A stretch of 64,000 nt of DNA from Nanobdellota archaeon (GCA_018819305.1 JAHJQO010000040.1:44320-108319), one strand, 5' to 3'; positions 19,343-64,000 are shown, counted from the stretch's first letter. The notes: generated from the sequence alone by a model not told the origin. Translations and numbers: made by a program.

Positions 19343-19600
19343 TCAGATTGCCCATGAAATACGGCAGGATCCTGACCAAACACTCCTCCAGTAGAATTCT
19401 CCATCTTCTTGAAAAATAGGTTCACCACAAGTACAGTCACGCCCCCATCCACCAATGTAATCATTACAGCTAAAGACAAGGCCAGCACCACTACAAATCG
19501 CATCCTTATCCGCACAAGTTACCGCAGATACAACTGCGCTGGCAAACATTAGGGACAACACTAAAAATAAGCCCAAAACAACAAATTTAATTTTTTTCAT
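19343..19600 (-). CDS. Small secreted cysteine-rich protein
   Basis: 85 aa. Signal-peptide-like MKKIKFVVLGLFLVLSLMFASAVVSA followed by 7 Cys within about 55 residues. Confidence 0.45.
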   Translation of the reverse strand: MKKIKFVVLGLFLVLSLMFASAVVSAVTCADKDAICSGAGLVFSCNDYIGGWGRDCTCGEPIFQEDGEFYWRSVWSGSCRISWAI

Positions 19601-26139: not shown

Positions 26140-27000
26140 TTATAAAGGTTTCAGTTGAGAATTATTGTTATATAAAATAATGCCTTCTGAAATCATGTGT
26201 GCGTACTCATTTTGCACACGTTCATCTGATATTGCTAAATTATCCTCCCTATATTTTTCATCTATAAACCCACATTCAATTAGCACAGAAGGGATTTGAG
26301 TCCTATGCAATGCATGGCCAAGCATTAAGTAGTCATTCATCATGAATCCAGGAATGTATTTTTTGATGTTGTTTTGCTTCACTAAAACCAAATCAGCCTT
26401 ATTGTTACTTGGCTTAAAACTCATTATAAGCGAATCATATATGGAATGAGCTAATAATTTGCTTTTTTCAAACGAACCATTTTCAGGACTGGTTGTAACA
26501 CTAAAACCAGAAAACTTACCTCTATATTCTTCAACTGTATCATTTATATGAATATTAATAATCAAATCAATTGGCTGGCTCTCAGCCCATTTGAGAATGG
26601 ATAATTGAATTACGGCTTCTTCCAAAGGCATACGATGGTTTCCAGTATTATTTTTTCTAAACTCAGATATTTTTTCCAATAGATCTTCTTTATTATGTTT
26701 CAAATAAGTCTCAATACTTGGCAAATAATCTATTTCATCACGAGTCAGAGTAGCGTTCAATCCTTGCTCATGCAAAAATTCTTGGGTTTTCTCAGCAATT
26801 TTTGTATTAATAATATATTCATATCCCACTCCTTTCATATAACAACCATAACCCTGTTTAAATACAGCTTTGTTATGGCCTGGATTAAGAAGAATCTGAA
26901 GATTCTTACTATCTTTATTACTATATATGGAATGATTAAAAACAGATTTAAAATCTAACAAAGCAAAAGATAGATACTGTATGAATTCTCTTCTTTTCAT
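26140..27000 (-). CDS. N-acetylmuramoyl-L-alanine amidase (Amidase_3-like) with Tat-like signal
   Basis: 286 aa. The N-terminus MKRREFIQYLSFALL is twin-arginine-like. Amidase_3-like motifs are LNPGHNK, DLIINIHIND and IPSVLIECGFIDEKYREDNL. Confidence 0.65.
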   Translation of the reverse strand: MKRREFIQYLSFALLDFKSVFNHSIYSNKDSKNLQILLNPGHNKAVFKQGYGCYMKGVGYEYIINTKIAEKTQEFLHEQGLNATLTRDEIDYLPSIETYLKHNKEDLLEKISEFRKNNTGNHRMPLEEAVIQLSILKWAESQPIDLIINIHINDTVEEYRGKFSGFSVTTSPENGSFEKSKLLAHSIYDSLIMSFKPSNNKADLVLVKQNNIKKYIPGFMMNDYLMLGHALHRTQIPSVLIECGFIDEKYREDNLAISDERVQNEYAHMISEGIILYNNNSQLKPL

Positions 27001-47517: not shown

Positions 47518-48192
47518 ATGAAATGGTATCTTCTTCTAGTTGTAGTTATCTTTGGAGCTTTCTTCATCGCCAGTTGTAATCCCGGACAAATCTGTGGTGA
47601 CGGTTATTGTAGTGCAGAAGAAGATGCAATGGGTTATTGCCCACAGGATTGTAATCTGGAACCCATTCCTAAATGCTATGATACTGACGGAGATGACATC
47701 TATACAAAAGGATATTTAACTTATGATGGGAAAAAATATGAAGATGAATGCTATGGTGGCGGTCTTCAACTAGGAGAAATGATTTGCATTTATGAAAATA
47801 ATGCATGGAGCATGGCTAATAGTGTGAGAGAATGTCCAAAAGGAACAACATGTACTGATGGAGCATGCAGAAAATCAGCAATAGTATGTATAGACAACAG
47901 CGAACCTGAATGCCCAACAGGTTCAACTTCTGCATCTTATGTAAACAATGATGGATGCCAGAGCTGGAGATGTGTACCTAACCCAACTGTAACTTGCGCT
48001 GATAGCGATGGTTTTGATGCATATGTTCTTGGCAGAATCACAGGAATTGATTCTGACGGCAATTCATTTACCATATCTGACACATGCGGAACCACCACCA
48101 ATTTAATAGAACGTGTTTGTGAAGGACAAACCGGGGCGATGATTAGAATTCCCTGCGCAAATGGATGCGAAGCTGGGAGGTGTCTACAATGA
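47518..48192 (+). CDS. Secreted cysteine-rich protein, lipoprotein-like signal, two six-Cys modules
   Basis: MKWYLLLVVVIFGAFFIASC signal. The module C-x-D-[ST]-D-G-x-D-x-Y...D-x-C...CP-x-G-x-x-C-x-x-G-x-C occurs twice. ATG at 47518 (GAGGG upstream) is preferred to the listed TTG at 47509. Confidence 0.6.
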   Translation: MKWYLLLVVVIFGAFFIASCNPGQICGDGYCSAEEDAMGYCPQDCNLEPIPKCYDTDGDDIYTKGYLTYDGKKYEDECYGGGLQLGEMICIYENNAWSMANSVRECPKGTTCTDGACRKSAIVCIDNSEPECPTGSTSASYVNNDGCQSWRCVPNPTVTCADSDGFDAYVLGRITGIDSDGNSFTISDTCGTTTNLIERVCEGQTGAMIRIPCANGCEAGRCLQ

Positions 48193-52888: not shown

Positions 52889-54028
52889 TTATTCAATATC
52901 CATTAATTCTTTATCCAAATCAATATCTTCAAGATTATCACTGCTGGCTGCAGGCTTTACTTCAGGTGTTACTTTTGCAGGCTCTGATTTTTTTTCTTCT
53001 TCAATAGGCTTCTCTTCTTCCTGCCCAACAACTTTGTCTGCTTCCTGCTTAAGCTTTCTTATTTCTTCATCAGGGTCAGGCTTTCTGTCTACATTATTTG
53101 CAACCAGCTCAATTCTGTCAAAATTTTGGTTTTTATTAGCTTTTCCACTCACCTTAATTATATTCCCAAGAAGTTCTGTTTTCAATGGTTCAAATTTACT
53201 AGGATCATCCTTGAATGTCATTATCTGTGATTTGTCCATGTCAAGTAGCTGTTCAACCTGCTGGCTCCAGAAGACTACTCTGATATTATCACTTCCATCA
53301 TCAAGATACAGGTTTAATACATAATTAAAATCAGGCTCAACTTTGCTGTGAGTTGGGCAGAAAAATCCTTCATCCTTGTATCTTATTCTTTTTTTGCATT
53401 CAGGGCATACTTCAAAAAAATTCAAGTCAAAAACCTGCACAATTGTTGCCAAAACTTCAACATTAGCATCAGTTTCCTGTATTTCAGAAATATTTTTTTT
53501 AACAGCAGTAGGAGGTGTGTATGGTTTTACTTCAACTTCAACACCAGGAGGATTAATAATTAATTTAGCTGTATCACCAACATGTATTTCATTTCTTCCC
53601 TGATTCTCCCTGACATATCCTCCGCTTATCTTGACAATATCTCCTTCTTTTAACTGGTTAACAAGTTCTGCCTGATTGTGCCACATAACAACTCTTATCA
53701 TGCCAGTATCATCACCAACAAGCATATTAGAAACTTTTCCCTGATGTTTTTCTGTTTTAAATTCTCTTAACTCATAAACTTGAAGGACTTTGGCAACCAA
53801 CTCAACATTTCGCATGCCAGAAAGAATGTTTTTTATCTGAAGTTTTTCACCAACATCAAAAAGCTTTACACCTAATTCATTTGCAATAATATGAGCTGCT
53901 CCTTCTTCTGAAATTAAACCTGAGAGCTGCTTGAGCTTAGCTTTTATTTTTTCATTTAGTTCTTCTTCTGACAAGCCTGTTTTCTGAGAAATTCTTTGTT
54001 TTATCTGCGGTAAAGGCATATTAATCAT
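52889..54028 (-). CDS. rpa: Replication protein A (OB-fold ssDNA-binding, zinc-ribbon type)
   Basis: 379 aa. N-terminal helical domain (ISEEGAAHIIANELGV), two OB folds, CPECKKRIRYKDEGFFCPTH and an acidic tail. Confidence 0.85.
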   Translation of the reverse strand: MINMPLPQIKQRISQKTGLSEEELNEKIKAKLKQLSGLISEEGAAHIIANELGVKLFDVGEKLQIKNILSGMRNVELVAKVLQVYELREFKTEKHQGKVSNMLVGDDTGMIRVVMWHNQAELVNQLKEGDIVKISGGYVRENQGRNEIHVGDTAKLIINPPGVEVEVKPYTPPTAVKKNISEIQETDANVEVLATIVQVFDLNFFEVCPECKKRIRYKDEGFFCPTHSKVEPDFNYVLNLYLDDGSDNIRVVFWSQQVEQLLDMDKSQIMTFKDDPSKFEPLKTELLGNIIKVSGKANKNQNFDRIELVANNVDRKPDPDEEIRKLKQEADKVVGQEEEKPIEEEKKSEPAKVTPEVKPAASSDNLEDIDLDKELMDIE

Positions 54029-54159: not shown

Positions 54160-57100
54160 TCAGTCTTTTTTTATCAAATCATTGCAATCCACTGACAAGA
54201 AAGAATTCAAATGCTGCTCCAGGAATGATTTGAGCTTTGATTCAAGCAATCCTTTTATATTGCCGTCTCTCATCAAAGCATTCACATATTCATTGTCAAT
54301 TGCAGGAATCATTCTCAGCATTTCTGACTGCAGCTGGCTTGTATCTGGCAGCCTGCCTTCAAGAATATCATGCACATACTGGTTTTTCATAGAATCAGGC
54401 AGTTCATTGAGTTCTTTTTGCAGCATATCATAAGCTGCTCCTTTAAAATCTCTTGTTGAAGCAACTTCTTTCAGAATTTCCGGAGCATTTTCATCAAACT
54501 TATCAACAGCCTTATTCAAAAGCTGCTCTTTTGCAGACTCTGCAGTTTCAAAACTATTTAATGCATCATGATAAACATCTTCAATCTCATCATTTCTAAG
54601 GCATGCAACTGCCTGCTCTGCAGATATGCCATAACTATCAACACAACCTTTTTCAACTGCTTTTTCAACAAGCATGTCTCTTATTTCTTGTCCATTCCTG
54701 CTGTTGGCAATTTCAAGCAAATCTTTCTTTTTCTGGTCAGCAGTAAGCTCATTTTCAGCTGCCTGAATCAGTTTGCCATAAGCAAGACTTTCTGGGTCCT
54801 GACCTTTTGCAACTTCTTTTAATATTTCAGGTGCTTTTGAACTGTCAACATAATCAATTCCTTTTTGCATAGCCATTTGTTTTGTGGCTGTTGTCAAATC
54901 CTCTCCTGCCATTATATTATTAAATATAAAATTTGCATCCTGATTTTTTATCTGACCTGACAAATGATTCATCACTGTTTGTCTTTCCCAGATAGACAGG
55001 TCTTCAACAGAGTCAACAAGAGAATTGCCAATTATATCTTCATTGATTGTGTCAACAATAAAGCTTTCAAAATAATTCTTTAAGTCGCCGCCAAGAGCAT
55101 CAACATTTAACTTAACCATATCATTAAAGTCACCATTGCCAGTAACTGCATTTACAAAATCATCAGTGTCAGGCAGTTCAATATAAGGTTTTAAATCATC
55201 AGGAATAATACCTGCAGGAAGAAATGAGCCTAATTCTTTTTCAAGCAGCTCAGAAACAACTAAATCAAGCAAAGAGTTAGTTTGCACACAATTACTAATA
55301 GCATTTGCCAGCATCTTATTGCCATTCTTGTCAACAGGAACGAGTGCAACACAATAGTTTTTTCTCAGAACCTTGTCAATTATTATGGATAATTCTCCGC
55401 ATTTCTTAAGATTAAACACCATTTTACCATCTTTGACAACTCCTTTGATGGCAGGCACCATAACTGTTTCTCCTGAAAACTTACTCACAGGAACATTGCA
55501 GTCTTTTAAATCAAGGAACTTTGAATAAGGATTTGTATTTACATATTGGTCAAGCTGGCTTACTTTCTGGTTTATGCCGCTATTTGCCATTACAACAAAC
55601 TGGCTTGGATTTGATTTATCAAGAATATCTGTTGGTATCATGTTTGTAAGGAAATCAGTGCAATGCACTTCATAACCAGCAACATCCAAAGGATTACCAT
55701 CCTTGTCTTTTGGCACTTCAACCACAACTTCAAATTTTCTTGACTGTGTTTCATCAAGAGCTTCTAATATTGAACTTGCTGATGCAATATAACCAAGAAG
55801 AGGATTAATTAAGCCTGCAAGTTCTAAAACCTTGTTTAAATCTGAAGGTGATGTGCCAACTTCTGTTTCTACTAATGTTATTTCTCCTTGTTTCACTGGT
55901 TCAGGGGGCTTGTCTTTCATCTGAAATGAGAATTTCATCTTCATTAGCTCAGTTTTGTTTTCATCTGGTTTTGCACAAAGCCTGAACTTGTCTTTGTTGT
56001 AAACACATTGAGCAACATCTGTGTTAACAAAGAAACCTTCTTTAGCAGTTGTTAGTTTTGTAAGTTTTATAACCTTGTAATTATCCCAAGTGATTGCACC
56101 ATCCAATTCACCAAACTCTTTCATTTGTATAAGTTCTGCAGTATTCAAGGATCCTGTATCAAGAAACTTAAGCCTGAGCAAGTAAGATTTATAACTTGAA
56201 GGAGGAACTATTTTGCCAAAATAAAACTCATGCCTGTCAATTGTTTCAAAAGAACCATCACTTCTCTTAATAACCAAAGACGCTGTGTTTTCTTCTGTAT
56301 TAAACATAATGTTTAAGTCATTTCCTGAAACAACATTTGAAAGATTGAATTCGCAACCGCATTTATATTTCTGGTTTGAAAAGCAGTCTTCAAAAGCTTC
56401 CATCATATCATAGAACAAAGGATAATCCTCGCACTGATCTGCAAATGACAAAGTAAAATCATATTTATCAGGCTGATCATTGAACTCTTTCATTTTCTCA
56501 TTCAAACATGTTCTAGGATCATCAGTGCACGCATTCCAAGTCTTGTCAAACCAGTCAGTAAGCTGCTTTATTGGATCATCCATCTTCTTATTTACACGAG
56601 TTGTAAATGCTGGCTTGAAATTATAAGTGCCAAAACCTACAGTTTCCTTGGTTTTAGAATCTGGACCTATTGTATCTGGTTCAAAATAAGTTTCCGTAAC
56701 AGCTCCAGTTATGTCTGAATCAGAACCCTGATTTGAATCAGAAGGAATTACTGGTGTATTTAAAAACGCGTCAGGCAAATCATATTTGTTACATACAGTG
56801 TTAAGTTCTGTATTTATAGGTTGATTGCATCCAGATCCTGATATTGAATCTGCTTTTTCAAGCAGGCACTCAGGATGAATATGATCTGTTGAACCAAAAC
56901 TATGAAGAACCATTTTCTGAGAACCGTATTTTAAACCTGTAGGTACACCTTTGTAAAGCACTGCAAAATGAAGGTGAGCTCCATAAACATCAGGCCTGCA
57001 ATATCCTGATTTATCTTTTCCTCTGCCACCAACAGTTCCTATTTTTTGTCCTCGCTCAACTTGCTGGTCAGGTTCTACATTCCAAGTATCTAAGTGCAAA

Positions 57101-57933
57101 TATTCTGTGCTAAGTCCAGAGCCATGATAAATAACAACTCTTCCCCAGCATTTGTCAACAGCAGTTACTTTTCCGCTCGCAGCAGCAATAACATTGGTTC
57201 CTTTGCTTGCAGTAATATCAATTCCAGGATGATCAGTTGAACCTATATTTCCACCCATGTCTCTCCATCCAAAACAAGAATGAATCATTTTCTGAGCTGT
57301 CTGAACTGGCCAAGAAAGTTTTCCTCCTTCAAAAGTTGGCATAATAGCAAGAGGGTCTTTTTTTCTGGCTTCTATACTCAAAACATTAAAATCACTATCA
57401 GTGTCAGATATACCATAAAGCAAGAAATGATCTTCAAACTTTTTTATACTTAAGTTATAAGAAATTGGAAGATTAATACCTGTAAGTTGGTAGTAGTTCT
57501 TGGTGCGAGCCACAAAATCATCCTGAAATGCATTAAGAAATGCTGTTTCACAATCAGGAAAGCAAAGAGTATCATTTGTACTCCAAAGCGGATAAACAAA
57601 TTTACCACAGGGCGACGCCCATTCATCAACAACTTCTTCTTCTGCAACACCCACAAAGCAGGATTGCCTGATTTTATCTAAAGCTGTCTGGGATGAAAGT
57701 TTTGAGGACTGGTCTAAAAATAAATGAATTGCATCTGCATCCTGAAGAGCTGAAAAAACACTCATTTGTTTTTCTCCTAAAAACTGCTCTTCACCATTAA
57801 AATCCTTAATATTTTTTGCATTACTTAAGGCAATAAGTGCATATGAAAGAGTGATAATTGTAAAAAGCAGCACAAAAATAGGATAAACCTGTGCTTTTTT
57901 GTTTTTTCTTAAACTTCTTGATTTTATTTTCAT
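54160..57933 (-). CDS. 1257-aa pilin-like-anchored protein with M23/LytM metallopeptidase domain
   Basis: The N-terminus MKIKSRSLRKNKKA-QVYPIFVLLFTIITLSYALIAL has the class III signal shape. The M23 motifs are HPGIDI (HxxxD) and AHLHF (HxH) with GKVTAV...GLSTEYLHL...VERGQKIGTVGG between them (about aa 205-330, nt 56944-57321). A C-terminal internal repeat is APEILKEVAKG... / APEILKEVAST.... The start overlaps the upstream stop (ATGA). Confidence 0.8.
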   Translation of the reverse strand: MKIKSRSLRKNKKAQVYPIFVLLFTIITLSYALIALSNAKNIKDFNGEEQFLGEKQMSVFSALQDADAIHLFLDQSSKLSSQTALDKIRQSCFVGVAEEEVVDEWASPCGKFVYPLWSTNDTLCFPDCETAFLNAFQDDFVARTKNYYQLTGINLPISYNLSIKKFEDHFLLYGISDTDSDFNVLSIEARKKDPLAIMPTFEGGKLSWPVQTAQKMIHSCFGWRDMGGNIGSTDHPGIDITASKGTNVIAAASGKVTAVDKCWGRVVIYHGSGLSTEYLHLDTWNVEPDQQVERGQKIGTVGGRGKDKSGYCRPDVYGAHLHFAVLYKGVPTGLKYGSQKMVLHSFGSTDHIHPECLLEKADSISGSGCNQPINTELNTVCNKYDLPDAFLNTPVIPSDSNQGSDSDITGAVTETYFEPDTIGPDSKTKETVGFGTYNFKPAFTTRVNKKMDDPIKQLTDWFDKTWNACTDDPRTCLNEKMKEFNDQPDKYDFTLSFADQCEDYPLFYDMMEAFEDCFSNQKYKCGCEFNLSNVVSGNDLNIMFNTEENTASLVIKRSDGSFETIDRHEFYFGKIVPPSSYKSYLLRLKFLDTGSLNTAELIQMKEFGELDGAITWDNYKVIKLTKLTTAKEGFFVNTDVAQCVYNKDKFRLCAKPDENKTELMKMKFSFQMKDKPPEPVKQGEITLVETEVGTSPSDLNKVLELAGLINPLLGYIASASSILEALDETQSRKFEVVVEVPKDKDGNPLDVAGYEVHCTDFLTNMIPTDILDKSNPSQFVVMANSGINQKVSQLDQYVNTNPYSKFLDLKDCNVPVSKFSGETVMVPAIKGVVKDGKMVFNLKKCGELSIIIDKVLRKNYCVALVPVDKNGNKMLANAISNCVQTNSLLDLVVSELLEKELGSFLPAGIIPDDLKPYIELPDTDDFVNAVTGNGDFNDMVKLNVDALGGDLKNYFESFIVDTINEDIIGNSLVDSVEDLSIWERQTVMNHLSGQIKNQDANFIFNNIMAGEDLTTATKQMAMQKGIDYVDSSKAPEILKEVAKGQDPESLAYGKLIQAAENELTADQKKKDLLEIANSRNGQEIRDMLVEKAVEKGCVDSYGISAEQAVACLRNDEIEDVYHDALNSFETAESAKEQLLNKAVDKFDENAPEILKEVASTRDFKGAAYDMLQKELNELPDSMKNQYVHDILEGRLPDTSQLQSEMLRMIPAIDNEYVNALMRDGNIKGLLESKLKSFLEQHLNSFLSVDCNDLIKKD

Positions 57934-58577
57934 TTTATTAGTTTTATTTCAAAAAATGCAGTGTGTGAATAAAACATTATCTTTGCCATTTGGCCATCTG
58001 TGCAAGGTATTACTTGCGAGCCAAAGCCTGCTTCTCTGTAAGGAGTTGCAAATAACTCCCAAGCTAAAGGTTTAGGAATTGCATTAGAAGCAGCAGTACC
58101 TGCCAAAAAAATCACAGTTACAAGACTGTTTATGCTTTTCTTAAGGCTGCTTTTATGGCCAAATGTTTTTTTGCTTGAATTTGAATATATAATCCAAAGT
58201 TCCCAATCATCATCATAAATTCCATCAAAGAAGTTCTCTAATGACGCTTTCAAAGCATCATGGTTATAATCGTAATAGTCTTCTTGTTTATTGCAAGTCC
58301 ATGATATCAAATCTGCATTTGTTATATCTTCACCCACATCTGGAAATAAATCCTTTGGAATGTTTCCATCTGAATCATAAACTGGTGATATTAAGAAATT
58401 ATTTAGCAAAAGCTCTGTACTAAGTGAAGAAGCCCCAAGTTCTGCTTCTGCTGATTTATTGGCAGCCATAAACCTAAATAAAAAGATAAAAATAATAAAA
58501 ACAGCCACTAAGAAAATAACTGCAAAAATAGTCAAAATGGTTTTCATTCCTTTTTTTGATTTCAAAAGTCTTTTCAT
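57930..58577 (-). CDS. Pilin-like (class III signal-type) protein
   Basis: 215 aa with the N-terminus MKRLLKSKKG-MKTILTIFAVIFLVAVFIIFIF. Translationally coupled to both neighbours. Confidence 0.55.
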   Translation of the reverse strand: MKRLLKSKKGMKTILTIFAVIFLVAVFIIFIFLFRFMAANKSAEAELGASSLSTELLLNNFLISPVYDSDGNIPKDLFPDVGEDITNADLISWTCNKQEDYYDYNHDALKASLENFFDGIYDDDWELWIIYSNSSKKTFGHKSSLKKSINSLVTVIFLAGTAASNAIPKPLAWELFATPYREAGFGSQVIPCTDGQMAKIMFYSHTAFFEIKLIK

Positions 58578-58580
58578 TTT

Positions 58581-59099
58581 TCAGTTAGGTATCAAAATCA
58601 TTGTTTTGATGTAGCCAGGAAGATTCACACTATTTTTTCTATAAAGTATAGGTATGGTTCTAGTGAAAATATCTGCACTGCCTTCTCCTTTTATCCTACT
58701 CTGAGCAAGAGGTTCCAAGCGCGTATACCAAACACCGTTAAGATAAGCTGTTTTTACAAGCTCTTTTTTCTGGTCATATAATTCTAGTTTTGCAGCTATT
58801 TGTCTTTCATAAGAGTAAGTAATAGATTTGTCTAAGGTTTCATTTGTAAAATTATCCAAGGCAATAATACCAGGATAAACTCTACCTGTTACCTGATCCA
58901 TGTACATTATTGAATTCGGAGAATATATCAACCGATTGAAAAGAACTTCTCTCTGAAGCGGTTTAGGATCAACAGTAATGTTAATGAATAAGTTGATTAA
59001 AAGAAATATACCTGCCATGACTGCAACAGTTAGGACAATATAAGGAATAAATTCTAATATTTCCTCAGCTCCCACACCTCCTTTTTTGTTAAGTTTCAT
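58581..59099 (-). CDS. Pilin-like protein
   Basis: 172 aa with the N-terminus MKLNKKGG-VGAEEILEFIPYIVLTVAVMAGIFLLI. 2-3 nt gaps to both neighbours. Confidence 0.5.
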   Translation of the reverse strand: MKLNKKGGVGAEEILEFIPYIVLTVAVMAGIFLLINLFINITVDPKPLQREVLFNRLIYSPNSIMYMDQVTGRVYPGIIALDNFTNETLDKSITYSYERQIAAKLELYDQKKELVKTAYLNGVWYTRLEPLAQSRIKGEGSADIFTRTIPILYRKNSVNLPGYIKTMILIPN

Positions 59100-59101
59100 T
59101 T

Positions 59102-59533
59102 CTAATCAAACCTTATTGAATTATTCTCAAATATAATTTTAAAACTCGATGGAGTAACAGTAATATTTGACTTATTGACAGAAACATATTCATTAAACCC
59201 AATTCTAAACAAAGTCTTGGCTCTTGATTCCACAGGCTTGTCATCCCTGTCTGTTAAAAAAACATGGTCTGGCTCCAGATTAATATCCAAAGGCATATTA
59301 TCAGGTGTATTGACATCATACTCCATGACAAAATAGCCATTGCTTGCATGCATGGAATCAACTAAAAGAGCTAGGTCTCTGGCATAAAACCTTTTATGAA
59401 AAGTAGAATCACCAAGTGCACTCTCCACTCTGAGAAAAACAGCTATTACAAAGAAAGCTGCCAGTATCAAACCGAACATCACATAGAAAAGATTTGCCAG
59501 CATTGTCTTGGCTTTTTTATTAAATAAATACAT
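59102..59533 (-). CDS. Pilin-like protein
   Basis: 143 aa with the N-terminus MYLFNKKA-KTMLANLFYVMFGLILAAFFVIAVF. Confidence 0.5.
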   Translation of the reverse strand: MYLFNKKAKTMLANLFYVMFGLILAAFFVIAVFLRVESALGDSTFHKRFYARDLALLVDSMHASNGYFVMEYDVNTPDNMPLDINLEPDHVFLTDRDDKPVESRAKTLFRIGFNEYVSVNKSNITVTPSSFKIIFENNSIRFD

Positions 59534-59609
59534 AAGTATGACTATTGATAATCGGCTTTAAAAATATTTAGTTTTTAATTAACAATATAAACTTAATTTT
59601 TTTGTTTTC

Positions 59610-60761
59610 TTATTGATAAGTATTACTAATCTGCTTTAGAGACAATAAAAGGGAGTTCCCGCATTCAACTCTTTTTCCTTGCTTATAAAAAGCACACTTA
59701 TCATTTTCATTATGAACCTTACAAGGGTCAGAACTACAATAATATTGTTCCTGAGTGTCACAACTCGCGGTTTCGCTAATAGCTTTGCAATAATGGCTGC
59801 ATTTTGTTATAGCTTCACAGTTTACTGGCAGCACTTGGAACGAAGTTCCACCAGTAGAAAGACAATAGACCTTATCAAGTTGCTGACTCAAATCAACAAA
59901 TGTATTTCCACATAAGCAATTAGAAGTTATTTTTTGATTAATGGCACAATTTGTTATGCCTGTTTGTAAAATGCATTTCTGCTGGTCATCATTATAATAA
60001 CAAAACTGATTAACACTGACTTTTGAATTACTTCTTTTACCTATACACAGCTCATCTGATGTGGAAGGACATTCAACCAGAGTAGATTCTCTTTGCTTAA
60101 TCATTTCTGGAGAAAGACCTGCGGCAACCAGAACATGAATATTTCCATTAGGAGCAATAAATTTCTCAAGATATAAATCAACCATTTTTGCATATCCCAG
60201 CTGCAAATGATCATAATCAAAACGCAACTCAGCAGGATAGTCTACAGTTAATTCAGGAGAATGCTTTGGAAAATTCACTAAATCACCAGGATCTAAATAT
60301 GAAGATATCATATCTACTCCACTCAAAAAATATCCGTGAAAAATCACATTATCATCAAAAGGCCTGCATGTTGAAGGATTAGATGGGACATGATCCAATT
60401 TGTTATAAAAACAAAGACAAGGCTTGTATCCCTTACAATCCTTTACAGGATACTGCTCATAAGAGAATCCTGATTTGGGTCCATTTAATCCAAAAATATA
60501 ATGTTTTTTCTTCATGTAAAAAATCATGGTTTGAGAGTCAAAAGACCCATCTTTCTCAAGCATGAACTCCAAATTATCTGCCAAAGCATTATAATTGCTA
60601 AGAGCAGCAGGTTCTTGTCCTCCTGTTAAAGCTTGTATAAATTTATAACCGAGGTAAACAAGCAATACAATGCACATTATAACAAAAATTATGTGAATTA
60701 AATCACCCATGCCAGTCTCTTGTTGGCCTCTTTTATTCAATTTTCTCTGAAAAAAACGCAT
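59610..60761 (-). CDS. Pilin-like protein with cysteine-rich C-terminal half
   Basis: 383 aa with the N-terminus MRFFQRKLNKRG-QQETGMGDLIHIIFVIMCIVLLVYL. About 20 Cys lie in the last 170 aa. Confidence 0.5.
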   Translation of the reverse strand: MRFFQRKLNKRGQQETGMGDLIHIIFVIMCIVLLVYLGYKFIQALTGGQEPAALSNYNALADNLEFMLEKDGSFDSQTMIFYMKKKHYIFGLNGPKSGFSYEQYPVKDCKGYKPCLCFYNKLDHVPSNPSTCRPFDDNVIFHGYFLSGVDMISSYLDPGDLVNFPKHSPELTVDYPAELRFDYDHLQLGYAKMVDLYLEKFIAPNGNIHVLVAAGLSPEMIKQRESTLVECPSTSDELCIGKRSNSKVSVNQFCYYNDDQQKCILQTGITNCAINQKITSNCLCGNTFVDLSQQLDKVYCLSTGGTSFQVLPVNCEAITKCSHYCKAISETASCDTQEQYYCSSDPCKVHNENDKCAFYKQGKRVECGNSLLLSLKQISNTYQ

Positions 60762-60824
60762 AATAAGGAAATTTGATTATTTAGTATAAATTTGTTTCGG
60801 TAAGAAAGAGAAAAAAAATAAAGC

Positions 60825-61466
60825 TTAATTCTGATCAGTAGGATAAACATTTATTGTGATACTCTTTTCTGATGGAGTTCCTGCTTTGCATTTCTCAGTA
60901 TCAACTTTGCAAATAACAGGAATACGTCCTGTCGCTCCAATTATAGAGCATTCAGCATTAAACACAGGTTTTCCTTTATCAGAAGTTGTCCAAGTTTCTT
61001 TTTCACAAGGAATTGCCTTAACTGAAGACGCATTAATCTTAATACATCCTTCTGCTTTGATATTTGTCTCACACTCAATGTAAAAAGTTCTTTCAACAAC
61101 AACAGATTCCGGAGTAACAGTAATACGAGTAATATTTACTTTTTCATCAGGAGCCCCACCAGCACTTCCTCCACCTGAAACTATTTCTCCAAAACAACAA
61201 TAAGGTCGAGCAGGGTCTGCTTCAGAACACTGAAATATTTTCATCTTTGTACCATCACAAGCAGTATTCGCAGATACACAAACACCTTCTTTTCCCCAAA
61301 GATTTCCAAAACCCGAACAGCTAATTGCTTCACCAGTTATATTCTGAGCAGGTTTAAAAGCTCCTTTAGTCGCAAGATTTAGGAGTATATACGTAGCAAC
61401 TGCTAATAAAATAACAGTAAATATGATTTCTGGCACGCTCATTCCTTTTTTTGATTTTAACAACAT
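60825..61466 (-). CDS. Type IV pilin-like protein (G-MxxxE signature), cysteine-rich
   Basis: ATG at 61466 gives MLLKSKKG-MSVPEIIFTVILLAVATYILL, with Glu at +5 after the putative cleavage Gly. The listed start at 61478 is TTG. Confidence 0.6.
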   Translation of the reverse strand: MLLKSKKGMSVPEIIFTVILLAVATYILLNLATKGAFKPAQNITGEAISCSGFGNLWGKEGVCVSANTACDGTKMKIFQCSEADPARPYCCFGEIVSGGGSAGGAPDEKVNITRITVTPESVVVERTFYIECETNIKAEGCIKINASSVKAIPCEKETWTTSDKGKPVFNAECSIIGATGRIPVICKVDTEKCKAGTPSEKSITINVYPTDQN

Positions 61467-61478
61467 ATCACCTAGCAA

Positions 61479-62249
61479 TTATTCTTTTATGGCATGAATA
61501 CACACAATAGGCTCTTCTCCTTTCATATGCTTTTCAAATGAAACAAATTGTCCAAATGTTTTTACTGTTTTTGGGAAGTTGGAAAAATCTAAAACAGCAT
61601 AACCTTTAGGATCTTTTCCAAGCCCTAACTGAGCATTTTTCAAATTATCTTCACCATCAGCAATATCTTTTTGCTTATCTTTTGTATCAAGTAATAGACA
61701 AACTCTCCCACCGGGAAACTCCCATGAAGCTCTGCTTTTGGCTCCTCTTAAACCTAAAAAACCTCCTGCTCTGTTATAAATCTTCCAAACAGAACGCGTA
61801 TTTTTCATAGTGCTCAATTGTGTATTATAATTATCAATAACAATGAATACTAAACCTTCATCTTTAGTGTTAGAATAACTTATTATGTTCTTCATATATT
61901 GCGTTGCTTGATCGCATTTTTCAGAGTCTGCCAAACAACCGGTTAATGCTTCTTTTAAATGCGTCCGAAACACTGCAATTGCCTCAGCTTCATTTGATGG
62001 AATATTTATATCAAGCACACATCTATAATCTTTACAAAGACCATTTTGTCCTGCCAATTTGCATTCCTTTCCATCCTGAAGACCTGCGCATGCTTTTGAA
62101 GAATCTAATGTATCTTTTGAGATTTGACTCATAGTCTTCCCAGACAACTTTAATGGATCTAACAAAATAATAAGAACAAAAGTCAACAATAAAACACCAA
62201 ATATGACTCCTAAAAATGAAACACCTTTTTTATTTTTTCCTAAATACAT
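61479..62249 (-). CDS. Pilin-like protein
   Basis: 256 aa with the N-terminus MYLGKNKKG-VSFLGVIFGVLLLTFVLIILL. The stop abuts the next ORF. Confidence 0.55.
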   Translation of the reverse strand: MYLGKNKKGVSFLGVIFGVLLLTFVLIILLDPLKLSGKTMSQISKDTLDSSKACAGLQDGKECKLAGQNGLCKDYRCVLDINIPSNEAEAIAVFRTHLKEALTGCLADSEKCDQATQYMKNIISYSNTKDEGLVFIVIDNYNTQLSTMKNTRSVWKIYNRAGGFLGLRGAKSRASWEFPGGRVCLLLDTKDKQKDIADGEDNLKNAQLGLGKDPKGYAVLDFSNFPKTVKTFGQFVSFEKHMKGEEPIVCIHAIKE

Positions 62250-62319
62250 TCAATCACCATTTCTTACACTAAATTATTATTTTTTTAGTATATAAAGGTT
62301 GCGAAAGCAACAAAATAAA

Positions 62320-63030
62320 TCAAGCTGTAACACAAGCATTCACATCTCTATCAGTCTCCTTGTCCACGAATGATTTAATGCTAGCAACATAATTCACAAG
62401 GCTGTTTTCTGAGCAAGGAGCATACTTAACTAAAATATCTCCAACAGTTGTTAATCCTTCTCCAACATAATTATTTTTTATCAGGTCAAACCAGTGCTGA
62501 ACTCCTCTTTTCCAGGTTGGATAACTGCAAAATCCTTCATAATTTGTGCCTGAATATTTAGTTTTGCACGTATTTGTATATCTTATATTTCCAATTGACT
62601 TGGTTGTTGAGGCTTTACCTGCTTTTCCAAAACTTGATTCTTGCCTGAAAAATGCAAGAGCAATAGCATTATCAATTCCTGTTCTTTCACTCTCAGATAC
62701 AAAAAAACTAGCTATGTCAGGCTCTGCTATGATTGCTGGCGAGTTGGCATCTTTGAGTATTTTTTCAACTTCTGCTGCAGACAATGAAGGAGAATGCATA
62801 ACTGTAAGTTTGCATTTCAAAGCATTATCATTACAAGATTCTCCTGAATTTTCAGAGCCAAAAACACCTAAATCAATATCTATAGGAGTATTATCATCTG
62901 CTACAACAAAAATACTTTGAACTACTTTTCTTGAACCAGGAAAAACTATCAAAATAAGTGCAATAATTACAAATATGATGAGCACAATTGTGAATATTTT
63001 TCCTAATACATTTTCTGCACCATCAGACAT
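62320..63030 (-). CDS. N-terminally anchored lysozyme-like (GH73 glucosaminidase / SLT-type) murein hydrolase
   Basis: 236 aa with a hydrophobic N-terminal helix (KIFTIVLIIFVIIALILIVF). The pattern GIDNAIALAFFRQESSFGKAG...IGNIRY...FCSYPTWKRGVQHWFDLIKNNY...VKYAP...NYVASIKSFV has a catalytic-type Q-E-S-x-F. Confidence 0.6.
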   Translation of the reverse strand: MSDGAENVLGKIFTIVLIIFVIIALILIVFPGSRKVVQSIFVVADDNTPIDIDLGVFGSENSGESCNDNALKCKLTVMHSPSLSAAEVEKILKDANSPAIIAEPDIASFFVSESERTGIDNAIALAFFRQESSFGKAGKASTTKSIGNIRYTNTCKTKYSGTNYEGFCSYPTWKRGVQHWFDLIKNNYVGEGLTTVGDILVKYAPCSENSLVNYVASIKSFVDKETDRDVNACVTA

Positions 63031-63039
63031 TTTTTAACC

Positions 63040-63195
63040 TCAAAAAATACTTTTTAATAAATTTGGAAGATTCAAAGCAATTACCATTATAATTAGAACA
63101 ATAAGAAGCAAACCAAGTATAATCCAAAGTGTGCTGCCTAAAGCAGGCATTGGCTGTACATCTGCCTGTGCTTTCTTATTATTCATATTCTTCAT
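63040..63195 (-). CDS. 51-aa single-pass membrane protein
   Basis: MKNMNNKKAQADVQPMPALGSTLWIILGLLLIVLIIMVIALNLPNLLKSIF. Below the ORF-track cutoff. It fills the gap in the operon. Confidence 0.35.
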   Translation of the reverse strand: MKNMNNKKAQADVQPMPALGSTLWIILGLLLIVLIIMVIALNLPNLLKSIF

Positions 63196-63249
63196 ATTAA
63201 AACCTTTTATTTTATTGTATTTAATGATTTCGATAATTATAAAATATTA

Positions 63250-64000
63250 CTATCCAAGCACTTCTTTTTCCTTATCTTGCCTTACAGGCATTATTTCGCA
63301 GCCTATTTGCTTTAAGTTTTCTGCTGTATATTCTTCAAAAATCACCATTGACACCCATTCAACACCTTTTGATTTTAAAGCATCAATAATTGCACCCCCG
63401 ATAGCTCCAAGAACTGCTCCAGCACCAACTACTACTGCCGCAGCTCCACCTGTAGCACCTATAATGGCAGCAGTGAGAATTCCTGCTGTTGCACCTCCAA
63501 GAGAACCATAATAAGCACTCCAAGCCTTTGCATCTTGTTTTGTTTGGTAATAAGTATTTAATTTTTCATAAAAATCCTGCATATAATCGTCTCCTTTTGC
63601 ATAAACAAACATAGTGGCATAAGTTTTTGATGAGTCAAGAACCTTCAATGCTGTATTTTGCTGGACTTGCTGAATAAATTCAGGCGAAGCTTTTTCTTCA
63701 ATATCACCAGTCAGATAATCCATATAAGTCAAATCATTAAATTTTTCATCATTAACTTTTGTTGTTAATAAATATTCAGTGAGACCCTCTATTTGTTTAT
63801 TTTTTTGATTAAAATCAATAACAGAGCAAATATGACAGAAGTAACCTTCTCCTTTAAATAATTGAATCTGGCCACGCCCCCAAGTTCCCCAACAAGTCTT
63901 TAATGAATCTGCAATATAACGCTTTGATTCTTTTTCATTTGATTTGGGAATAGTATAATATTTTGTTGGACAATATATATCAGTAACTAAAGCTTCTCCA
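63250..64000 (-). CDS. Hypothetical protein, 5' end beyond window, Gly/Ala-rich C-terminal membrane segment
   Basis: The reading frame stays open upstream of the listed Met to base 63999 (GEALVTDIYCPTKYYTIPKS...CWGTWGRGQIQLF...). The C-terminus is GGATAGILTAAIIGATGGAAAVVVGAGAVLGAIGGAII. Confidence 0.5.
   Translation of the reverse strand, partial: GEALVTDIYCPTKYYTIPKSNEKESKRYIADSLKTCWGTWGRGQIQLFKGEGYFCHICSVIDFNQKNKQIEGLTEYLLTTKVNDEKFNDLTYMDYLTGDIEEKASPEFIQQVQQNTALKVLDSSKTYATMFVYAKGDDYMQDFYEKLNTYYQTKQDAKAWSAYYGSLGGATAGILTAAIIGATGGAAAVVVGAGAVLGAIGGAIIDALKSKGVEWVSMVIFEEYTAENLKQIGCEIMPVRQDKEKEVLG

What the first reader, a model, noticed from the sequence alone, without database searches (positions are those of the whole stretch)
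54160..64000. Operon of about ten pilin-like proteins fused or linked to peptidoglycan hydrolases in an archaeal-looking genome
From at least 64000 down to 54160 every gene is on the minus strand with gaps of -4 to about 75 nt. Several junctions are ATGA overlaps or 2-3 nt gaps. At least seven products begin with a short basic leader ending in KKG/KRG/KKA followed directly by a roughly 20-aa hydrophobic helix. Examples are MLLKSKKG-MSVPEIIF..., MYLGKNKKG-VSFLGVIF..., MKRLLKSKKG-MKTILTIF... and RKNKKA-QVYPIFVLLF.... This is the shape of class III (prepilin/prearchaellin) signal peptides. Two members carry murein-degrading catalytic domains, an M23/LytM endopeptidase in a 1257-aa protein and a GH73/SLT-like lysozyme fold in a 236-aa protein. 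Archaea have no murein, so a filament or surface assembly displaying bacterial cell-wall hydrolases suggests contact-dependent attack on, or attachment to, bacteria. Pseudomurein-containing hosts are another possibility. I do not recognise this architecture as a described system. The operon is physically contiguous with unmistakably archaeal genes (RPA 130 nt downstream, RadA at 46 kb), which argues against a chimeric bin.
Basis: partly seen in the sequence, partly recalled or inferred. Interest (0 to 1): 0.85.

Follow-up and report, generated by a model that had tools for sequence, protein, structure and literature searches.

The report
Archaeal pilin-like operon carrying murein hydrolases
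A tiny (DPANN, Woesearchaeota-type) archaeon carries a conserved operon of about a dozen surface proteins with pilin-type leader sequences, whose largest member couples a constant N-terminal 'carrier' to interchangeable bacterial cell-wall-cutting enzymes, which points to a dedicated apparatus for attaching to or attacking bacteria.

Summary
Window 54160-64000 is one minus-strand operon of ten genes that runs off the window end. Every product has an N-terminal membrane helix, and eight in-window products have a KK[G/A]-type site in front of it. The 1257-aa protein has an intact M23 peptidase domain. The 236-aa protein models as a GH73 glucosaminidase.

- **Conservation.** Nine other archaeal contigs carry the operon, with 11-15 genes, down to about 25% identity. 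RPA always follows it.
- **Leader motif.** All 125 products have an N-terminal helix and 102 have the [KR][GA] site, against 1 of 11 controls.
- **Carrier module.** The first ~180 aa of the M23 giant form an undescribed module with a [KR][GAS]|Q[IV][FY] N-terminus, like EppA-cleaved Methanococcus pilins. It is fused to M23, SLT, M15/VanY, Amidase_2, 3D, YkuD, GH73 or NlpC/P60 domains, all peptidoglycan enzymes.
- **Not shown.** No pilin HMM matches. One modelled member has no pilin neighbour. No ATPase, platform or prepilin peptidase is linked. One family looks like an integral membrane protein.

Murein hydrolases in these archaea are already published. The pilin-like operon and the carrier-plus-warhead design appear not to be. 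I read it as a new variant of modular pilins and class III-signal surface proteins, aimed at bacterial murein. Filament assembly is inferred.

The parts
54160..57933 (-). 1257-aa terminal gene of the operon. A modular giant: class III-like leader (MKIKSRSLRKNKKA|QVYPIF...), carrier module, M23 peptidase and a conserved 820-aa C-terminal region.
   Evidence: ORF. 16 homologs, all archaeal where named (Nanoarchaeota/Woesearchaeota), at 37-56% identity full-length. It is the last gene before RPA in ten loci.
57334..57933 (-). Carrier module, aa 1-200: leader, TM helix, the 'IG.KQ' helix and a Cys...W...C.P disulfide loop.
   Evidence: phmmer against 1.84e9 representatives gave 104 relatives, with the match at the extreme N-terminus in all but a few (P0050 and P0073 match internally), in proteins of 99-1538 aa. 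The conserved motif is [KR][GAS]|Q[IV][FY]. G46, C102, W110, C117 and P119 are near-invariant. There is no Pfam hit and no PDB sequence hit.
56941..57234 (-). Peptidase_M23 domain (aa 234-331) with the complete Zn/catalytic motifs HPGID, YLHL and HLHF.
   Evidence: Pfam 74.6 bits, E 7e-21. PDB hits are DipM, LasA, ShyA and others. Motifs are conserved in orthologs.
54163..56634 (-). C-terminal region (aa 434-1257). It is Cys-rich in the middle and has helical repeats at the end (APEILKE.A...). Function unknown; probably binding or a spacer.
   Evidence: 69% mean column identity among 5 orthologs. No PDB sequence match. Relatives insert SLT or Amidase_2 just before it, between about aa 395 and 434.
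57930..58577 (-). 215-aa core family, SKKG|MKTILTIF...
   Evidence: Present in all ten loci by homology or position. No family hit.
58581..59099 (-). 172-aa core family, NKKG|GVGAE(+5)E...
   Evidence: 17 close homologs and orthologs in all ten loci. AF2 model pLDDT 80: TM helix 11-39, helix 46-59 and six main beta strands. No PDB or viral structural neighbour.
59102..59533 (-). 143-aa core family, NKKA|KTMLANLFYV...
   Evidence: Orthologs in all ten loci. No PDB profile hit.
59610..60761 (-). 383-aa core family, NKRG|QQETGMGD..., with 21 Cys.
   Evidence: Orthologs in all ten loci. Invariant cysteines. No significant PDB hit.
60825..61466 (-). 213-aa family, SKKG|MSVPE(+5)IIF..., carrying the 6-Cys C..G.C...C...C..CC module.
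   Evidence: The module is shared with the small pilin-like proteins of relatives.
61479..62249 (-). 256-aa family, NKKG|VSFLGVIF...
   Evidence: Found in the window, L010, L013 and L016 only.
62320..63030 (-). 236-aa TM-anchored GH73-like N-acetylglucosaminidase. This is the variable 'hydrolase slot' of the operon.
   Evidence: Pfam Glucosaminidase matches 7 of 8 family members, best E 1.3e-5. AF2 pLDDT 81.6. Foldseek finds LytB, AtlE, Atl, SagB and FlgJ. E131-S132 and G147-N148-I149 are invariant. In L016 and L018 the same position holds a TM + Amidase_2 protein.
63040..63195 (-). 51-aa TM protein, NNKKA|QADVQ...
   Evidence: Positional counterparts of 41-55 aa occur in other loci.
63250..64000 (-). 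3' 250 codons of a 317-aa gene (N-terminus MFDSEKRRNEMNKKG|FAMSK... lies off-window). It has a conserved Gly/Ala-rich hydrophobic hairpin near the C-terminus.
   Evidence: The paralog pair F317a/F317b has hhalign probability 97.6%. The distant homolog L021:2674-4005 has a TPM domain, E 1.7e-10.
26140..27000 (-). Not in the operon: a 286-aa Amidase_3 (N-acetylmuramoyl-L-alanine amidase) with a Tat-like N-terminus. It shares the murein-degradation theme.
   Evidence: Pfam 71.4 bits, E 1.2e-19.

Best explanation
This is a chromosomal, vertically inherited operon of Woesearchaeota-type DPANN archaea. It encodes an exported, multi-subunit cell-surface apparatus built from proteins with prepilin-type (class III, EppA-like) N-termini.

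**The hydrolase subunits.** The last and largest subunit is a modular protein. A constant ~180-aa pilin-like carrier module presents an M23 endopeptidase. In relatives the carrier presents other, or additional, murein enzymes. A second, small TM-anchored subunit supplies a glycan-cutting GH73-like enzyme, or an amidase in relatives.

**Proposed working.**
1. The proteins are inserted by Sec.
2. A class III signal peptidase removes their short basic leaders.
3. A type-IV-filament ATPase and platform, encoded elsewhere in the genome, assemble them into a short pilus or pseudopilus, or a bindosome-like surface array. The bulk subunits would be the two small Cys-knot pilin-like proteins encoded at the operon start, beyond this window.
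4. The hydrolase-bearing giant sits at the tip or periphery. On contact with a bacterium it cuts peptide cross-links and glycan strands locally. This allows intimate attachment, penetration or lysis.

**Shown versus inferred.** Shown: the operon, its conservation, the leader motif, intact M23 motifs, the GH73 fold, and the exclusive fusion of the carrier to murein enzymes. Inferred: leader cleavage, filament assembly, tip location and the bacterial target.
For: - **Operon conservation.** Operon structure is. Ten loci have the same gene order down to ~25% identity, and RPA always follows.
- **Leader motif.** All 125 operon proteins have an N-terminal TM helix. 102 have [KR][GA] immediately before it, against 1 of 11 controls.
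- **Carrier family.** 107 of 110 have G/A/S at -1, 61 have Q at +1, I/V at +2 and F/Y at +3. These match the experimentally defined EppA sites KG|QI, KG|QV and RA|QI, with the +1 Gln requirement (PMC4371748).
- **Candidate bulk subunits.** Small proteins at the operon start have a highly conserved KKG|QG(L/I)SMNVIIIAAIALLVL N-terminus, as major pilins do.
- **Unlinked pilin genes have precedent.** Stand-alone pilin genes away from the assembly locus are normal in archaea (PMC4858521). DPANN archaea are reported to have Epd-like 'system 1' machineries.
- **Enzymes.** M23 is intact. The GH73 fold is supported.
- **Hydrolase shuffling.** Hydrolases move between the small subunit and an insert in the giant.
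- **Carrier fusions.** Every catalytic domain fused to the carrier is a murein enzyme: M23 17, SLT 15, M15 8, VanY 6, Amidase_2 4, 3D 4, YkuD 3, plus GH73, NlpC/P60, C39-like and phage lysozyme. One fn3 domain was the only other hit.
Against: - No Pfam or NCBIfam class III-signal or pilin model matches any product.
- The modelled 172-aa member has no pilin among its structural neighbours. Its TM helix is separated from the next helix by a break. The carrier alignment also has an indel-prone linker after the TM helix, unlike the continuous alpha-1 of canonical pilins.
- Ectodomains of the families are not detectably related to each other.
- The 317-aa family has a second hydrophobic Gly-zipper hairpin and a TPM-domain relative. 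At least that product should stay in the membrane.
- No ATPase, platform or A24 peptidase lies in the 64-kb window or in the flanks of ten loci.
- How a surface-anchored enzyme would reach murein under a Gram-negative outer membrane is unexplained.
- The core-gene-like conservation differs from the patchy distribution typical of weapons.
Confidence: 0.5

Rival explanations
1. This is a membrane-tethered muralytic complex without a filament. The N-termini are uncleaved Sec signal anchors (type II membrane proteins). The products form a fixed complex in the archaeal membrane that holds murein hydrolases at the cell surface. It acts on bacteria only at tight cell-cell contacts.
For: All products have one N-terminal TM helix and none matches a pilin HMM. 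There is no pilin-like structural neighbour. The ectodomains are unrelated. F317a has a second hydrophobic hairpin and a TPM-domain relative. No assembly genes are linked in ten loci.
Against: A plain signal anchor needs positive charge, not a small residue followed by Gln. Yet G/A/S at -1 occurs in 107 of 110 carriers and Q at +1 in 61. 82% of 125 operon proteins have the [KR][GA] site, against 1 of 11 controls. The N-terminus of the small proteins is conserved like that of major pilins.
Confidence: 0.3
2. This is nutrient scavenging rather than attack or attachment. The surface-bound hydrolases digest free murein fragments and necromass, feeding amino sugars and amino acids to an auxotrophic cell.
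For: The toolkit covers glycan, amide and peptide bonds. DPANN archaea are described as recyclers of cell debris (PMC9723730). The conserved, core-like genomic position fits a housekeeping role.
Against: A dozen conserved non-enzymatic partner proteins with pilin-like leaders are not needed for simple extracellular digestion. No linked transporters or catabolic genes for MurNAc or anhydro-muropeptides appear in the loci. Carrier fusions include YkuD and VanY, which modify stem peptides rather than releasing sugars.
Confidence: 0.12
3. These are autolysins or remodelling enzymes for a murein-like wall of the archaeon itself, as in bacterial divisome or pilus-associated hydrolases.
For: The operon is conserved like a core gene cluster next to RPA and RadA. 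The carrier fusions include wall-maturation enzymes (YkuD, VanY/M15). The window also holds a Tat-type Amidase_3, an ATP-grasp ligase with weak Ddl similarity and a MOP flippase.
Against: [quoted passage not shown] In a 2021 survey, murein cross-linking and recycling enzymes were reported absent from archaea (PMC10117817). No Mur ligase, MraY, MurG or PBP gene appears in the 64-kb window or in about 200 kb of flanks inspected. Published analyses treat these hydrolases as directed at bacteria (PMC8204110, PMC12352652).
Confidence: 0.06
4. This is an artefact or foreign DNA: a bacterial or viral segment mis-binned or mis-assembled into an archaeal contig, or an integrated element.
For: M23, GH73, SLT and the amidases are typically bacterial or phage domains. 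The M23 domain hits phage endolysin and tape-measure families.
Against: The same operon lies next to archaeal RPA, YdjM and RadA in ten independently assembled contigs from different studies. GC content is uniform at 33-35% across the window. No product other than the M23 domain clearly matches PHROGs. No integrase or repeats were noticed.
Confidence: 0.02

Closest known systems
EppA-dependent Epd pili of Methanococcus maripaludis (archaeal type IV filament 'system 1')
   Same: Short basic leader ending in K/R-G/A with Gln at +1, sometimes Glu at +5. Many different minor pilin-like proteins are encoded in one transcription unit. The major pilin is very short, and pilin genes can sit away from the ATPase/platform locus.
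   Different: No match to the Class_IIIsignal/DUF361 or Pilin_N HMMs. No EppA, ATPase or platform gene is linked. Catalytic domains are fused to a subunit. The ectodomains have no known pilin fold.
Bacterial modular pilins (for example S. sanguinis PilB/PilC; Raynaud et al. 2021, PMC8179133)
   Same: An N-terminal pilin module serves as a carrier for a grafted functional module, probably tip-exposed. Peptidase modules (S74, M26) have been noted among 264 architectures.
   Different: Those are bacterial, carry the IPR012902 G|FTLIE motif, and mostly bear adhesin modules. Here the carrier is a distinct archaeal ~180-aa family, and all of its catalytic cargo consists of murein enzymes.
Sulfolobus bindosome and SPIII-bearing substrate-binding proteins
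   Same: Functional, non-filament proteins carry class III signal peptides. They are thought to be arrayed at the surface by a type IV filament-like machine that is encoded separately from them.
   Different: The cargo there is sugar-binding proteins linked to ABC transporters. Here the cargo is hydrolases against a polymer the archaeon does not make.
Large extracellular murein lytic-transglycosylase proteins of Woese-/Pacearchaeota, and archaeal peptidoglycan hydrolases (Castelle 2021 PMC8204110; Vigneron 2022 PMC9723730; Strock 2025 PMC12352652)
   Same: Same lineage, same enzyme classes (SLT/GH23, M23, glucosaminidase) and the same proposed target, bacterial walls. The giants found here are probably members of, or overlap with, those protein families.
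   Different: Those papers treat single genes with Sec/Tat or no signal. They do not describe the conserved 11-15-gene operon, the class III-like leaders, the carrier module or the hydrolase swapping (searches found nothing).
Polymorphic toxin / T6SS-T7SS cell-wall effectors (Zhang et al. 2012, PMC3482391; Tae, Tge and Tlde families; from own knowledge)
   Same: A constant N-terminal trafficking or presentation domain is joined to a variable C-terminal warhead. The warheads are drawn from the same pool: M23, NlpC/P60, lysozyme-like, amidase and L,D-transpeptidase.
   Different: No immunity genes are expected or seen, because the producer lacks the target. The delivery route is different. The genes are chromosomal, single-copy and syntenic rather than in variable islands.

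Membership tests
Archaeal type IV pilin-like proteins (class III signal peptide substrates) | Short, positively charged leader ending in [KR]-[GAS], directly followed by a ~20-residue hydrophobic stretch | tested here: met
   9 of 10 window-operon products and 102 of 125 products in ten loci have it, against 1 of 11 controls. In the carrier family it is 107 of 110.
Archaeal type IV pilin-like proteins (class III signal peptide substrates) | EppA subtype: Gln at +1 (required by EppA), often Glu at +5 | tested here: met
   Q at +1 in the M23 giant and all its orthologs, in 61 of 107 carriers and in 29 of 102 operon sites. E at +5 in the 213-aa and 172-aa proteins. Reference sites are in PMC4371748.
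Archaeal type IV pilin-like proteins (class III signal peptide substrates) | Match to curated models (Pfam Class_IIIsignal PF04021, Pilin_N PF07790; NCBIfam arch_flag_Nterm) | tested here: not met
   No such hit at E<=1-10 for 10 window proteins and 20 relatives in Pfam, or for 10 proteins (7 of the window, 3 of L014) in NCBIfam.
Archaeal type IV pilin-like proteins (class III signal peptide substrates) | Pilin fold: a long N-terminal alpha-1 helix packed on a beta-sheet or Ig-like head | tested here: inconclusive
   The 172-aa model has TM helix 11-39, helix 46-59 and six main strands. Foldseek finds no pilin; the best hit is CutA/PII-like at E 0.017.
Archaeal type IV pilin-like proteins (class III signal peptide substrates) | Cognate class III signal peptidase, assembly ATPase and platform protein in the same genome | not testable with these tools
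   None was found in the 64-kb window (only part of it was scanned) or in 10-kb flanks of ten loci. Whole genomes could not be fetched.
Peptidase family M23 (LytM/lysostaphin-type murein endopeptidases) | HMM score above the curated cut-off | tested here: met
   74.6 bits against 28.7.
Peptidase family M23 (LytM/lysostaphin-type murein endopeptidases) | Zn-binding and catalytic motifs HxxxD, H and HxH | tested here: met
   HPGID235, YLHL278 and HLH320 are present. They are conserved in 13 of 14 aligned relatives.
Peptidase family M23 (LytM/lysostaphin-type murein endopeptidases) | Endopeptidase activity on murein cross-links | not testable with these tools
   Needs recombinant enzyme on purified sacculi.
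GH73 N-acetylglucosaminidase (lysozyme-like superfamily) | Pfam Glucosaminidase (PF01832) above the gathering score | tested here: not met
   19.8 bits against 30.2 for the window protein. 7 of 8 family members match sub-threshold, best E 1.3e-5.
GH73 N-acetylglucosaminidase (lysozyme-like superfamily) | GH73 fold with the conserved catalytic Glu | tested here: met
   Model pLDDT 81.6. Foldseek finds LytB 7pj3 at E 7.5e-6 (probability 1.0), then AtlE, Atl, SagB, Auto and FlgJ. E131 in the ESSFG motif is invariant in 8 of 8.
Modular pilins (carrier pilin module plus grafted functional module) | The same N-terminal module recurs in front of different C-terminal functional domains | tested here: met
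   104 relatives, with the match at the N-terminus in all but a few, and lengths of 99-1538 aa. 13 different Pfam catalytic domains, plus one fn3, were found among 84 scanned.
Modular pilins (carrier pilin module plus grafted functional module) | Bacterial prepilin motif IPR012902 (G|F/M-T-L-I-E) | tested here: not met
   The leaders are of the archaeal K-[GA]|Q type. No N_methyl-type Pfam hit.

The most novel reading that the evidence does not exclude
Woesearchaeota-type DPANN archaea assemble a type-IV-filament-like organelle. Its tip subunit is a pilin-like carrier armed with exchangeable murein hydrolases, accompanied by defensin-like Cys-knot pilins and a glycine-zipper membrane protein. 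This would be a dedicated, ancestral apparatus by which an archaeon breaches the wall of living bacteria. It would imply that the unknown hosts or prey of this very abundant lineage are bacteria, and that class III signal peptides route lytic enzymes in archaea.
Probability: 0.35. Interest if true: 0.85.

Novelty: new variant of a known kind. Interest (0 to 1): 0.7.

Why it matters
Woesearchaeota and their relatives are among the most abundant uncultured archaea, and their partners are unknown. Earlier work noted isolated murein hydrolase genes and guessed at bacterial hosts or prey. This locus adds several things.

- **A concrete, testable machine.** It is a deeply conserved operon whose products all carry prepilin-type leaders.
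- **A recognisable carrier module.** The module can be used as a search handle, and it is fused only to murein-active enzymes.

If leader cleavage and filament assembly are confirmed, three consequences follow:
- it would be the first archaeal example of enzymes displayed on a type IV filament-like structure;
- it would be a mechanistic entry point into archaeon-bacterium episymbiosis or predation;
- it would be a source of new lytic enzymes.

If the leaders are not cleaved, it is still a previously undescribed surface complex for degrading a polymer the organism does not make.

Tried and rejected
**Family and profile searches**
- Pfam, NCBIfam and PHROGs scans of all operon proteins found only M23, weak Glucosaminidase/SLT_4 and, at the E-value limit, one PHROG virion-protein hit on the 317-aa protein. 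No pilin or class III family matched.
- PDB profile searches gave nothing significant. They covered the giant's C-terminal 820 aa, the carrier module, the 143-aa and 383-aa families, and a 36-residue leader+helix profile. The pilin N-termini that appear (geopilin, Pilin_N, DUF973) have E-values of 0.5-3.

**Structure and profile-profile comparison**
- Foldseek of the 172-aa model against the PDB and viral structures found no neighbour.
- hhalign between ectodomain families found only the F317a/F317b paralogy. A 'set of paralogous pilins' is therefore not supported.

**Searches for context**
- A GTDB genome scan with the 172-aa family found only three species representatives. The 172-aa family is therefore narrow at this sensitivity, although the carrier module is broader.
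- I looked for a linked ATPase, platform or A24 peptidase in ten loci and found none. The AAA protein in L019 is PAN-like and cytoplasmic, not a secretion ATPase.
- The source contig beyond 64000 could not be retrieved. Look-ups returned other assemblies. Only 1.5 kb more came from a Logan contig (L004).

**Ideas considered and rejected**
- Prophage or tape-measure origin of the giant: its helical C-terminus and M23 domain resemble tape-measure proteins, but chromosomal synteny and the absence of clear phage hits speak against it.
- A Gram-positive-type conjugation system (VirB8-like proteins plus PrgK-like hydrolase): no structural or sequence support.
- A pseudomurein target: the fused enzyme repertoire is specific to MurNAc and D-amino-acid chemistry.

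**Literature**
- Searches for a prior description of the operon found none.

Full report
**1. What is in the window**

The 64-kb window has a uniform 30-38% G+C. It carries typical archaeal informational genes: RPA with Rep_fac-A_C, RadA (Rad51, 267 bits, plus HHH_5), PCNA and RNase J. NCBI names identical proteins as 'Nanoarchaeota archaeon' and their relatives as 'Candidatus Woesearchaeota'.

From 54160 to the window end, ten consecutive minus-strand ORFs form a tight operon. Their sizes are 1257, 215, 172, 143, 383, 213, 256, 236 and 51 aa, plus a 250-codon fragment. There is one ATGA overlap, and the gaps are 2-76 nt. A Logan contig with identical genes (L004) shows that the truncated gene encodes 317 aa and is preceded by a further operon gene. 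That gene's C-terminus matches the F317b paralog family.

**2. The N-termini**

Nine of the ten products, eight of them complete in the window, begin with a 7-15-residue basic leader ending in KKG, KRG or KKA. A ~20-residue hydrophobic helix follows directly. The 236-aa protein lacks the site, but an ortholog has MSQKKG|QEE.

In nine further loci with the same operon, all 125 products have an N-terminal helix. Of these, 102 have [KR][GA] within -2 to +8 residues of it. Among other window proteins with an N-terminal helix the figure is 1 of 11. Fisher p is 2e-6, with the caveat that orthologs are not independent.

The giant's orthologs read KKA|QVYP, KKA|QSGIYP, RKA|QIYP, SKG|QIFV and KRG|QIYL. 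These are the experimentally mapped EppA sites of Methanococcus maripaludis pilins: KG|QI, KG|QV, KG|QL and RA|QI. EppA requires Gln at +1 and frequently sees Glu at +5 (PMC4371748).

No curated pilin or class III HMM matches any of these proteins. Membership in the described pilin families is therefore not established. The resemblance lies in the processing-site architecture.

**3. The two enzymes**

*The M23 protein.* The 1257-aa protein has a Peptidase_M23 domain well above threshold (74.6 bits). Its complete HxxxD / H / HxH set is conserved in orthologs.

*The GH73-like protein.* The 236-aa protein is below Pfam's Glucosaminidase cut-off. However, 7 of 8 family members hit that model. An AlphaFold model (pLDDT 81.6) matches GH73 structures: LytB at E 7.5e-6, then AtlE, Atl, SagB, Auto and FlgJ. 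The Glu of the ESSFG motif is invariant.

*A third enzyme.* Outside the operon, the window also encodes a Tat-type Amidase_3.

**4. Conservation and anatomy of the operon**

I used the giant, the 172-aa family and carrier-module relatives as handles. This recovered nine related loci from independent assemblies: L010, L013-L016 and L018-L021. All have 11-15 co-directional genes in the same order:

- two or three small (75-100 aa) proteins with a strongly conserved KKG|QG(L/I)SMNVIIIAAIALLVL N-terminus and a 6-Cys module (absent from L013);
- a ~600-aa Cys-rich protein in several loci;
- the F317b/F317a paralog pair;
- a tiny TM protein;
- a 'hydrolase slot';
- the 256/213-type Cys-rich proteins;
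- the 383, 143, 172 and 215 families;
- finally the giant.

RPA always follows, usually with YdjM and RadA nearby, even at ~25% identity. This is therefore an old chromosomal feature. It is not a mobile island, a prophage or a binning artefact.

None of the loci contains a secretion ATPase, a platform protein or an A24 peptidase.

**5. Hydrolase swapping and the carrier module**

*Swapping within the operon.* The slot that holds the GH73-like protein in the window holds a TM + Amidase_2 protein in L016 and L018 (E 4e-25 and 6e-30). That protein is 48-51% identical to an Amidase_2 insert inside the giant of L013. Other giants carry an SLT insert at the same point, between about residues 395 and 434 of the window protein. 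Some giants lack M23 altogether: L020 has SLT only, and L021 has Amidase_2 + SLT. In P0016 the GH73-like domain replaces M23 behind the same N-terminal module.

*The carrier family.* I searched the first 200 residues of the giant against 1.84 billion representative proteins. This found 104 relatives. In all but a few the match is at the extreme N-terminus (P0050 and P0073 match internally), and lengths run from 99 to 1538 aa. Together with the giant's homologs, 107 of 110 have G/A/S after the last basic residue, 61 have Q at +1, and I/V and F/Y follow. After the helix comes a conserved 'IG.KQ...Y.DQ.A' helix and a C...W...C.P loop. The module matches nothing in Pfam or the PDB.

*Its cargo.* A Pfam scan of 84 relatives found 13 catalytic families, all acting on peptidoglycan: M23 17, SLT 15, Peptidase_M15 8, VanY 6, Amidase_2 4, 3D 4, YkuD 3, then Glucosaminidase, NlpC/P60, C39-like, phage tail lysozyme and Lysozyme_like. 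One fn3 domain was the only other hit. This constant-carrier/variable-warhead design is the main new result. It ties the pilin-like N-terminus functionally to murein.

**6. Tests of the filament idea**

*For.* The site architecture fits, and so does the conserved N-terminus of the small proteins. In archaea, pilin genes are commonly encoded away from the assembly genes (PMC4858521). Non-filament proteins can also carry class III signals, as in the bindosome.

*Against or inconclusive.*
- The 172-aa model (pLDDT 80) has a TM helix, a second helix and six main beta strands, but no pilin or any other significant neighbour.
- The ectodomain families are mutually unrelated, except F317a/b.
- F317a has a conserved Gly/Ala-rich hydrophobic hairpin, and a distant homolog has a TPM domain. 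It probably stays in the membrane.
- Both the 172-aa model and the carrier alignment show a break or indel-prone linker after the TM helix.
- The assembly machinery could not be looked for genome-wide.

I therefore rate 'exported class III-type surface apparatus presenting murein hydrolases' as likely. I rate 'true filament with the giant at its tip' as an inference of moderate probability.

**7. The target**

[quoted passage not shown] The fused domains act on MurNAc-L-Ala bonds, D-Ala termini, meso-DAP cross-links and MurNAc-GlcNAc bonds. That chemistry is absent from pseudomurein (family knowledge). Bacterial murein is therefore the most plausible substrate. This agrees with published suggestions for this lineage (PMC8204110, PMC9723730) and with experimental proof that haloarchaeal peptidoglycan hydrolases kill bacteria (PMC12352652). 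Whether the outcome is attachment, penetration, killing or scavenging cannot be decided here.

**8. Comparison with what is known, and novelty**

Murein hydrolase genes in Woese-/Pacearchaeota, and the hypothesis of bacterial partners, are already known. Class III signals on non-pilin cargo (the bindosome) and modular pilins with grafted domains, including peptidases in bacteria, are known principles.

I could not find four things in the literature:
- the deeply conserved 11-15-gene operon;
- the EppA-type leaders on the hydrolases and all their partners;
- the ~180-aa carrier family fused only to murein enzymes as catalytic cargo;
- the cassette-like exchange of hydrolases between two operon positions.

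I classify it as a new variant of a known kind, with high follow-up value. The carrier module gives a simple handle for surveys, and the predictions (leader cleavage, activity on sacculi, co-occurrence with type IV filament genes) are directly testable.

**9. Verdict**

| Item | Verdict |
|---|---|
| Observation | Confirmed |
| Interest | 0.7 |

| Explanation | Confidence |
|---|---|
| Pilin-like surface apparatus that presents murein hydrolases to bacteria | about 0.5 |
| Uncleaved membrane-anchored complex | about 0.3 |
| Scavenging | about 0.12 |
| Own-wall remodelling | about 0.06 |
| Artefact | about 0.02 |

Noticed in passing
window 26140-27000 (-): A 286-aa N-acetylmuramoyl-L-alanine amidase (Amidase_3, 71 bits) with a twin-arginine-like N-terminus, MKRREFIQYL. 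It is a third murein-hydrolase class on the same archaeal contig and lies outside the operon.
   Followed up: partly
window 60825-61466 (-); L010:213-761, L014:3781-4351, L015:667-1240, L016:1105-1685, L018:2303-2892, L020:3928-4409, L021:259-1046: A 6-Cys module (C..GG.C...C...C..CC) follows the TM helix in the small pilin-like proteins and in the 213-aa protein. It weakly resembles the beta-defensin-like fold of tick carboxypeptidase inhibitor (PDB 2k2z E 0.013; Pfam Inhibitor_I68 9e-4, AtDEF-like 2e-3). All matches are below threshold.
   Followed up: partly
window 63250-64000 (-), full gene in L004:367-1320; L021:2674-4005: The 317-aa family carries a conserved 45-55-aa Gly/Ala-rich hydrophobic hairpin (glycine-zipper-like) before a conserved C-terminal tail. 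A distant homolog has a TPM domain (E 1.7e-10). This suggests a resident membrane protein, or a membrane-inserting element.
   Followed up: partly
L001-L003 (NCBI MAG contigs JAHJON010000112, JAHJLC010000078, JAHJUX010000109), corresponding to window ~63150: Three independent MAG contigs of the same population all end 117-138 nt upstream of the GH73-like gene. The common assembly break suggests strain-level variation in the upstream part of the operon.
   Followed up: no
L018 (CAYGYA010000038.1): The contig is labelled 'uncultured Methanosarcinales archaeon' but carries the complete Woesearchaeota-type operon (M23+SLT giant, Amidase_2 slot). It is probably a mislabelled or contaminated bin.
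   Followed up: no
L019:4913-7359: In a distant version of the operon, two genes are inserted between the 383- and 143-type genes. One encodes a cytoplasmic PAN-like AAA ATPase and the other a protein with a squalene-hopene-cyclase C-terminal fold.
   Followed up: partly
window 408-1643 (+) and 5445-6935 (-): An ATP-grasp L-amino-acid-ligase-like gene (LAL_C2, with weak D-Ala-D-Ala-ligase similarity) lies near a MOP-family polysaccharide flippase. This could bear on the own-wall rival, but it is not specific.
   Followed up: no
P0050 (7139 aa): A 7139-aa protein matches residues 14-100 of the carrier module in 11 separate stretches, far from its N-terminus. It is unlike all the other relatives.
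   Followed up: no
window 1-64000: ARAGORN finds no tRNA gene in 64 kb. The window also holds several other small Cys-rich exported proteins (for example 19343-19600 and 47518-48192).
   Followed up: no
all ten loci (for example window 52889-54028, L010:14006-15223, L020:13382-14605, L021:12279-13391): The RPA (single-stranded DNA-binding protein) gene immediately follows the operon in every locus, down to ~25% protein identity. YdjM and RadA are usually nearby. The reason for this persistent linkage is unknown.
   Followed up: partly
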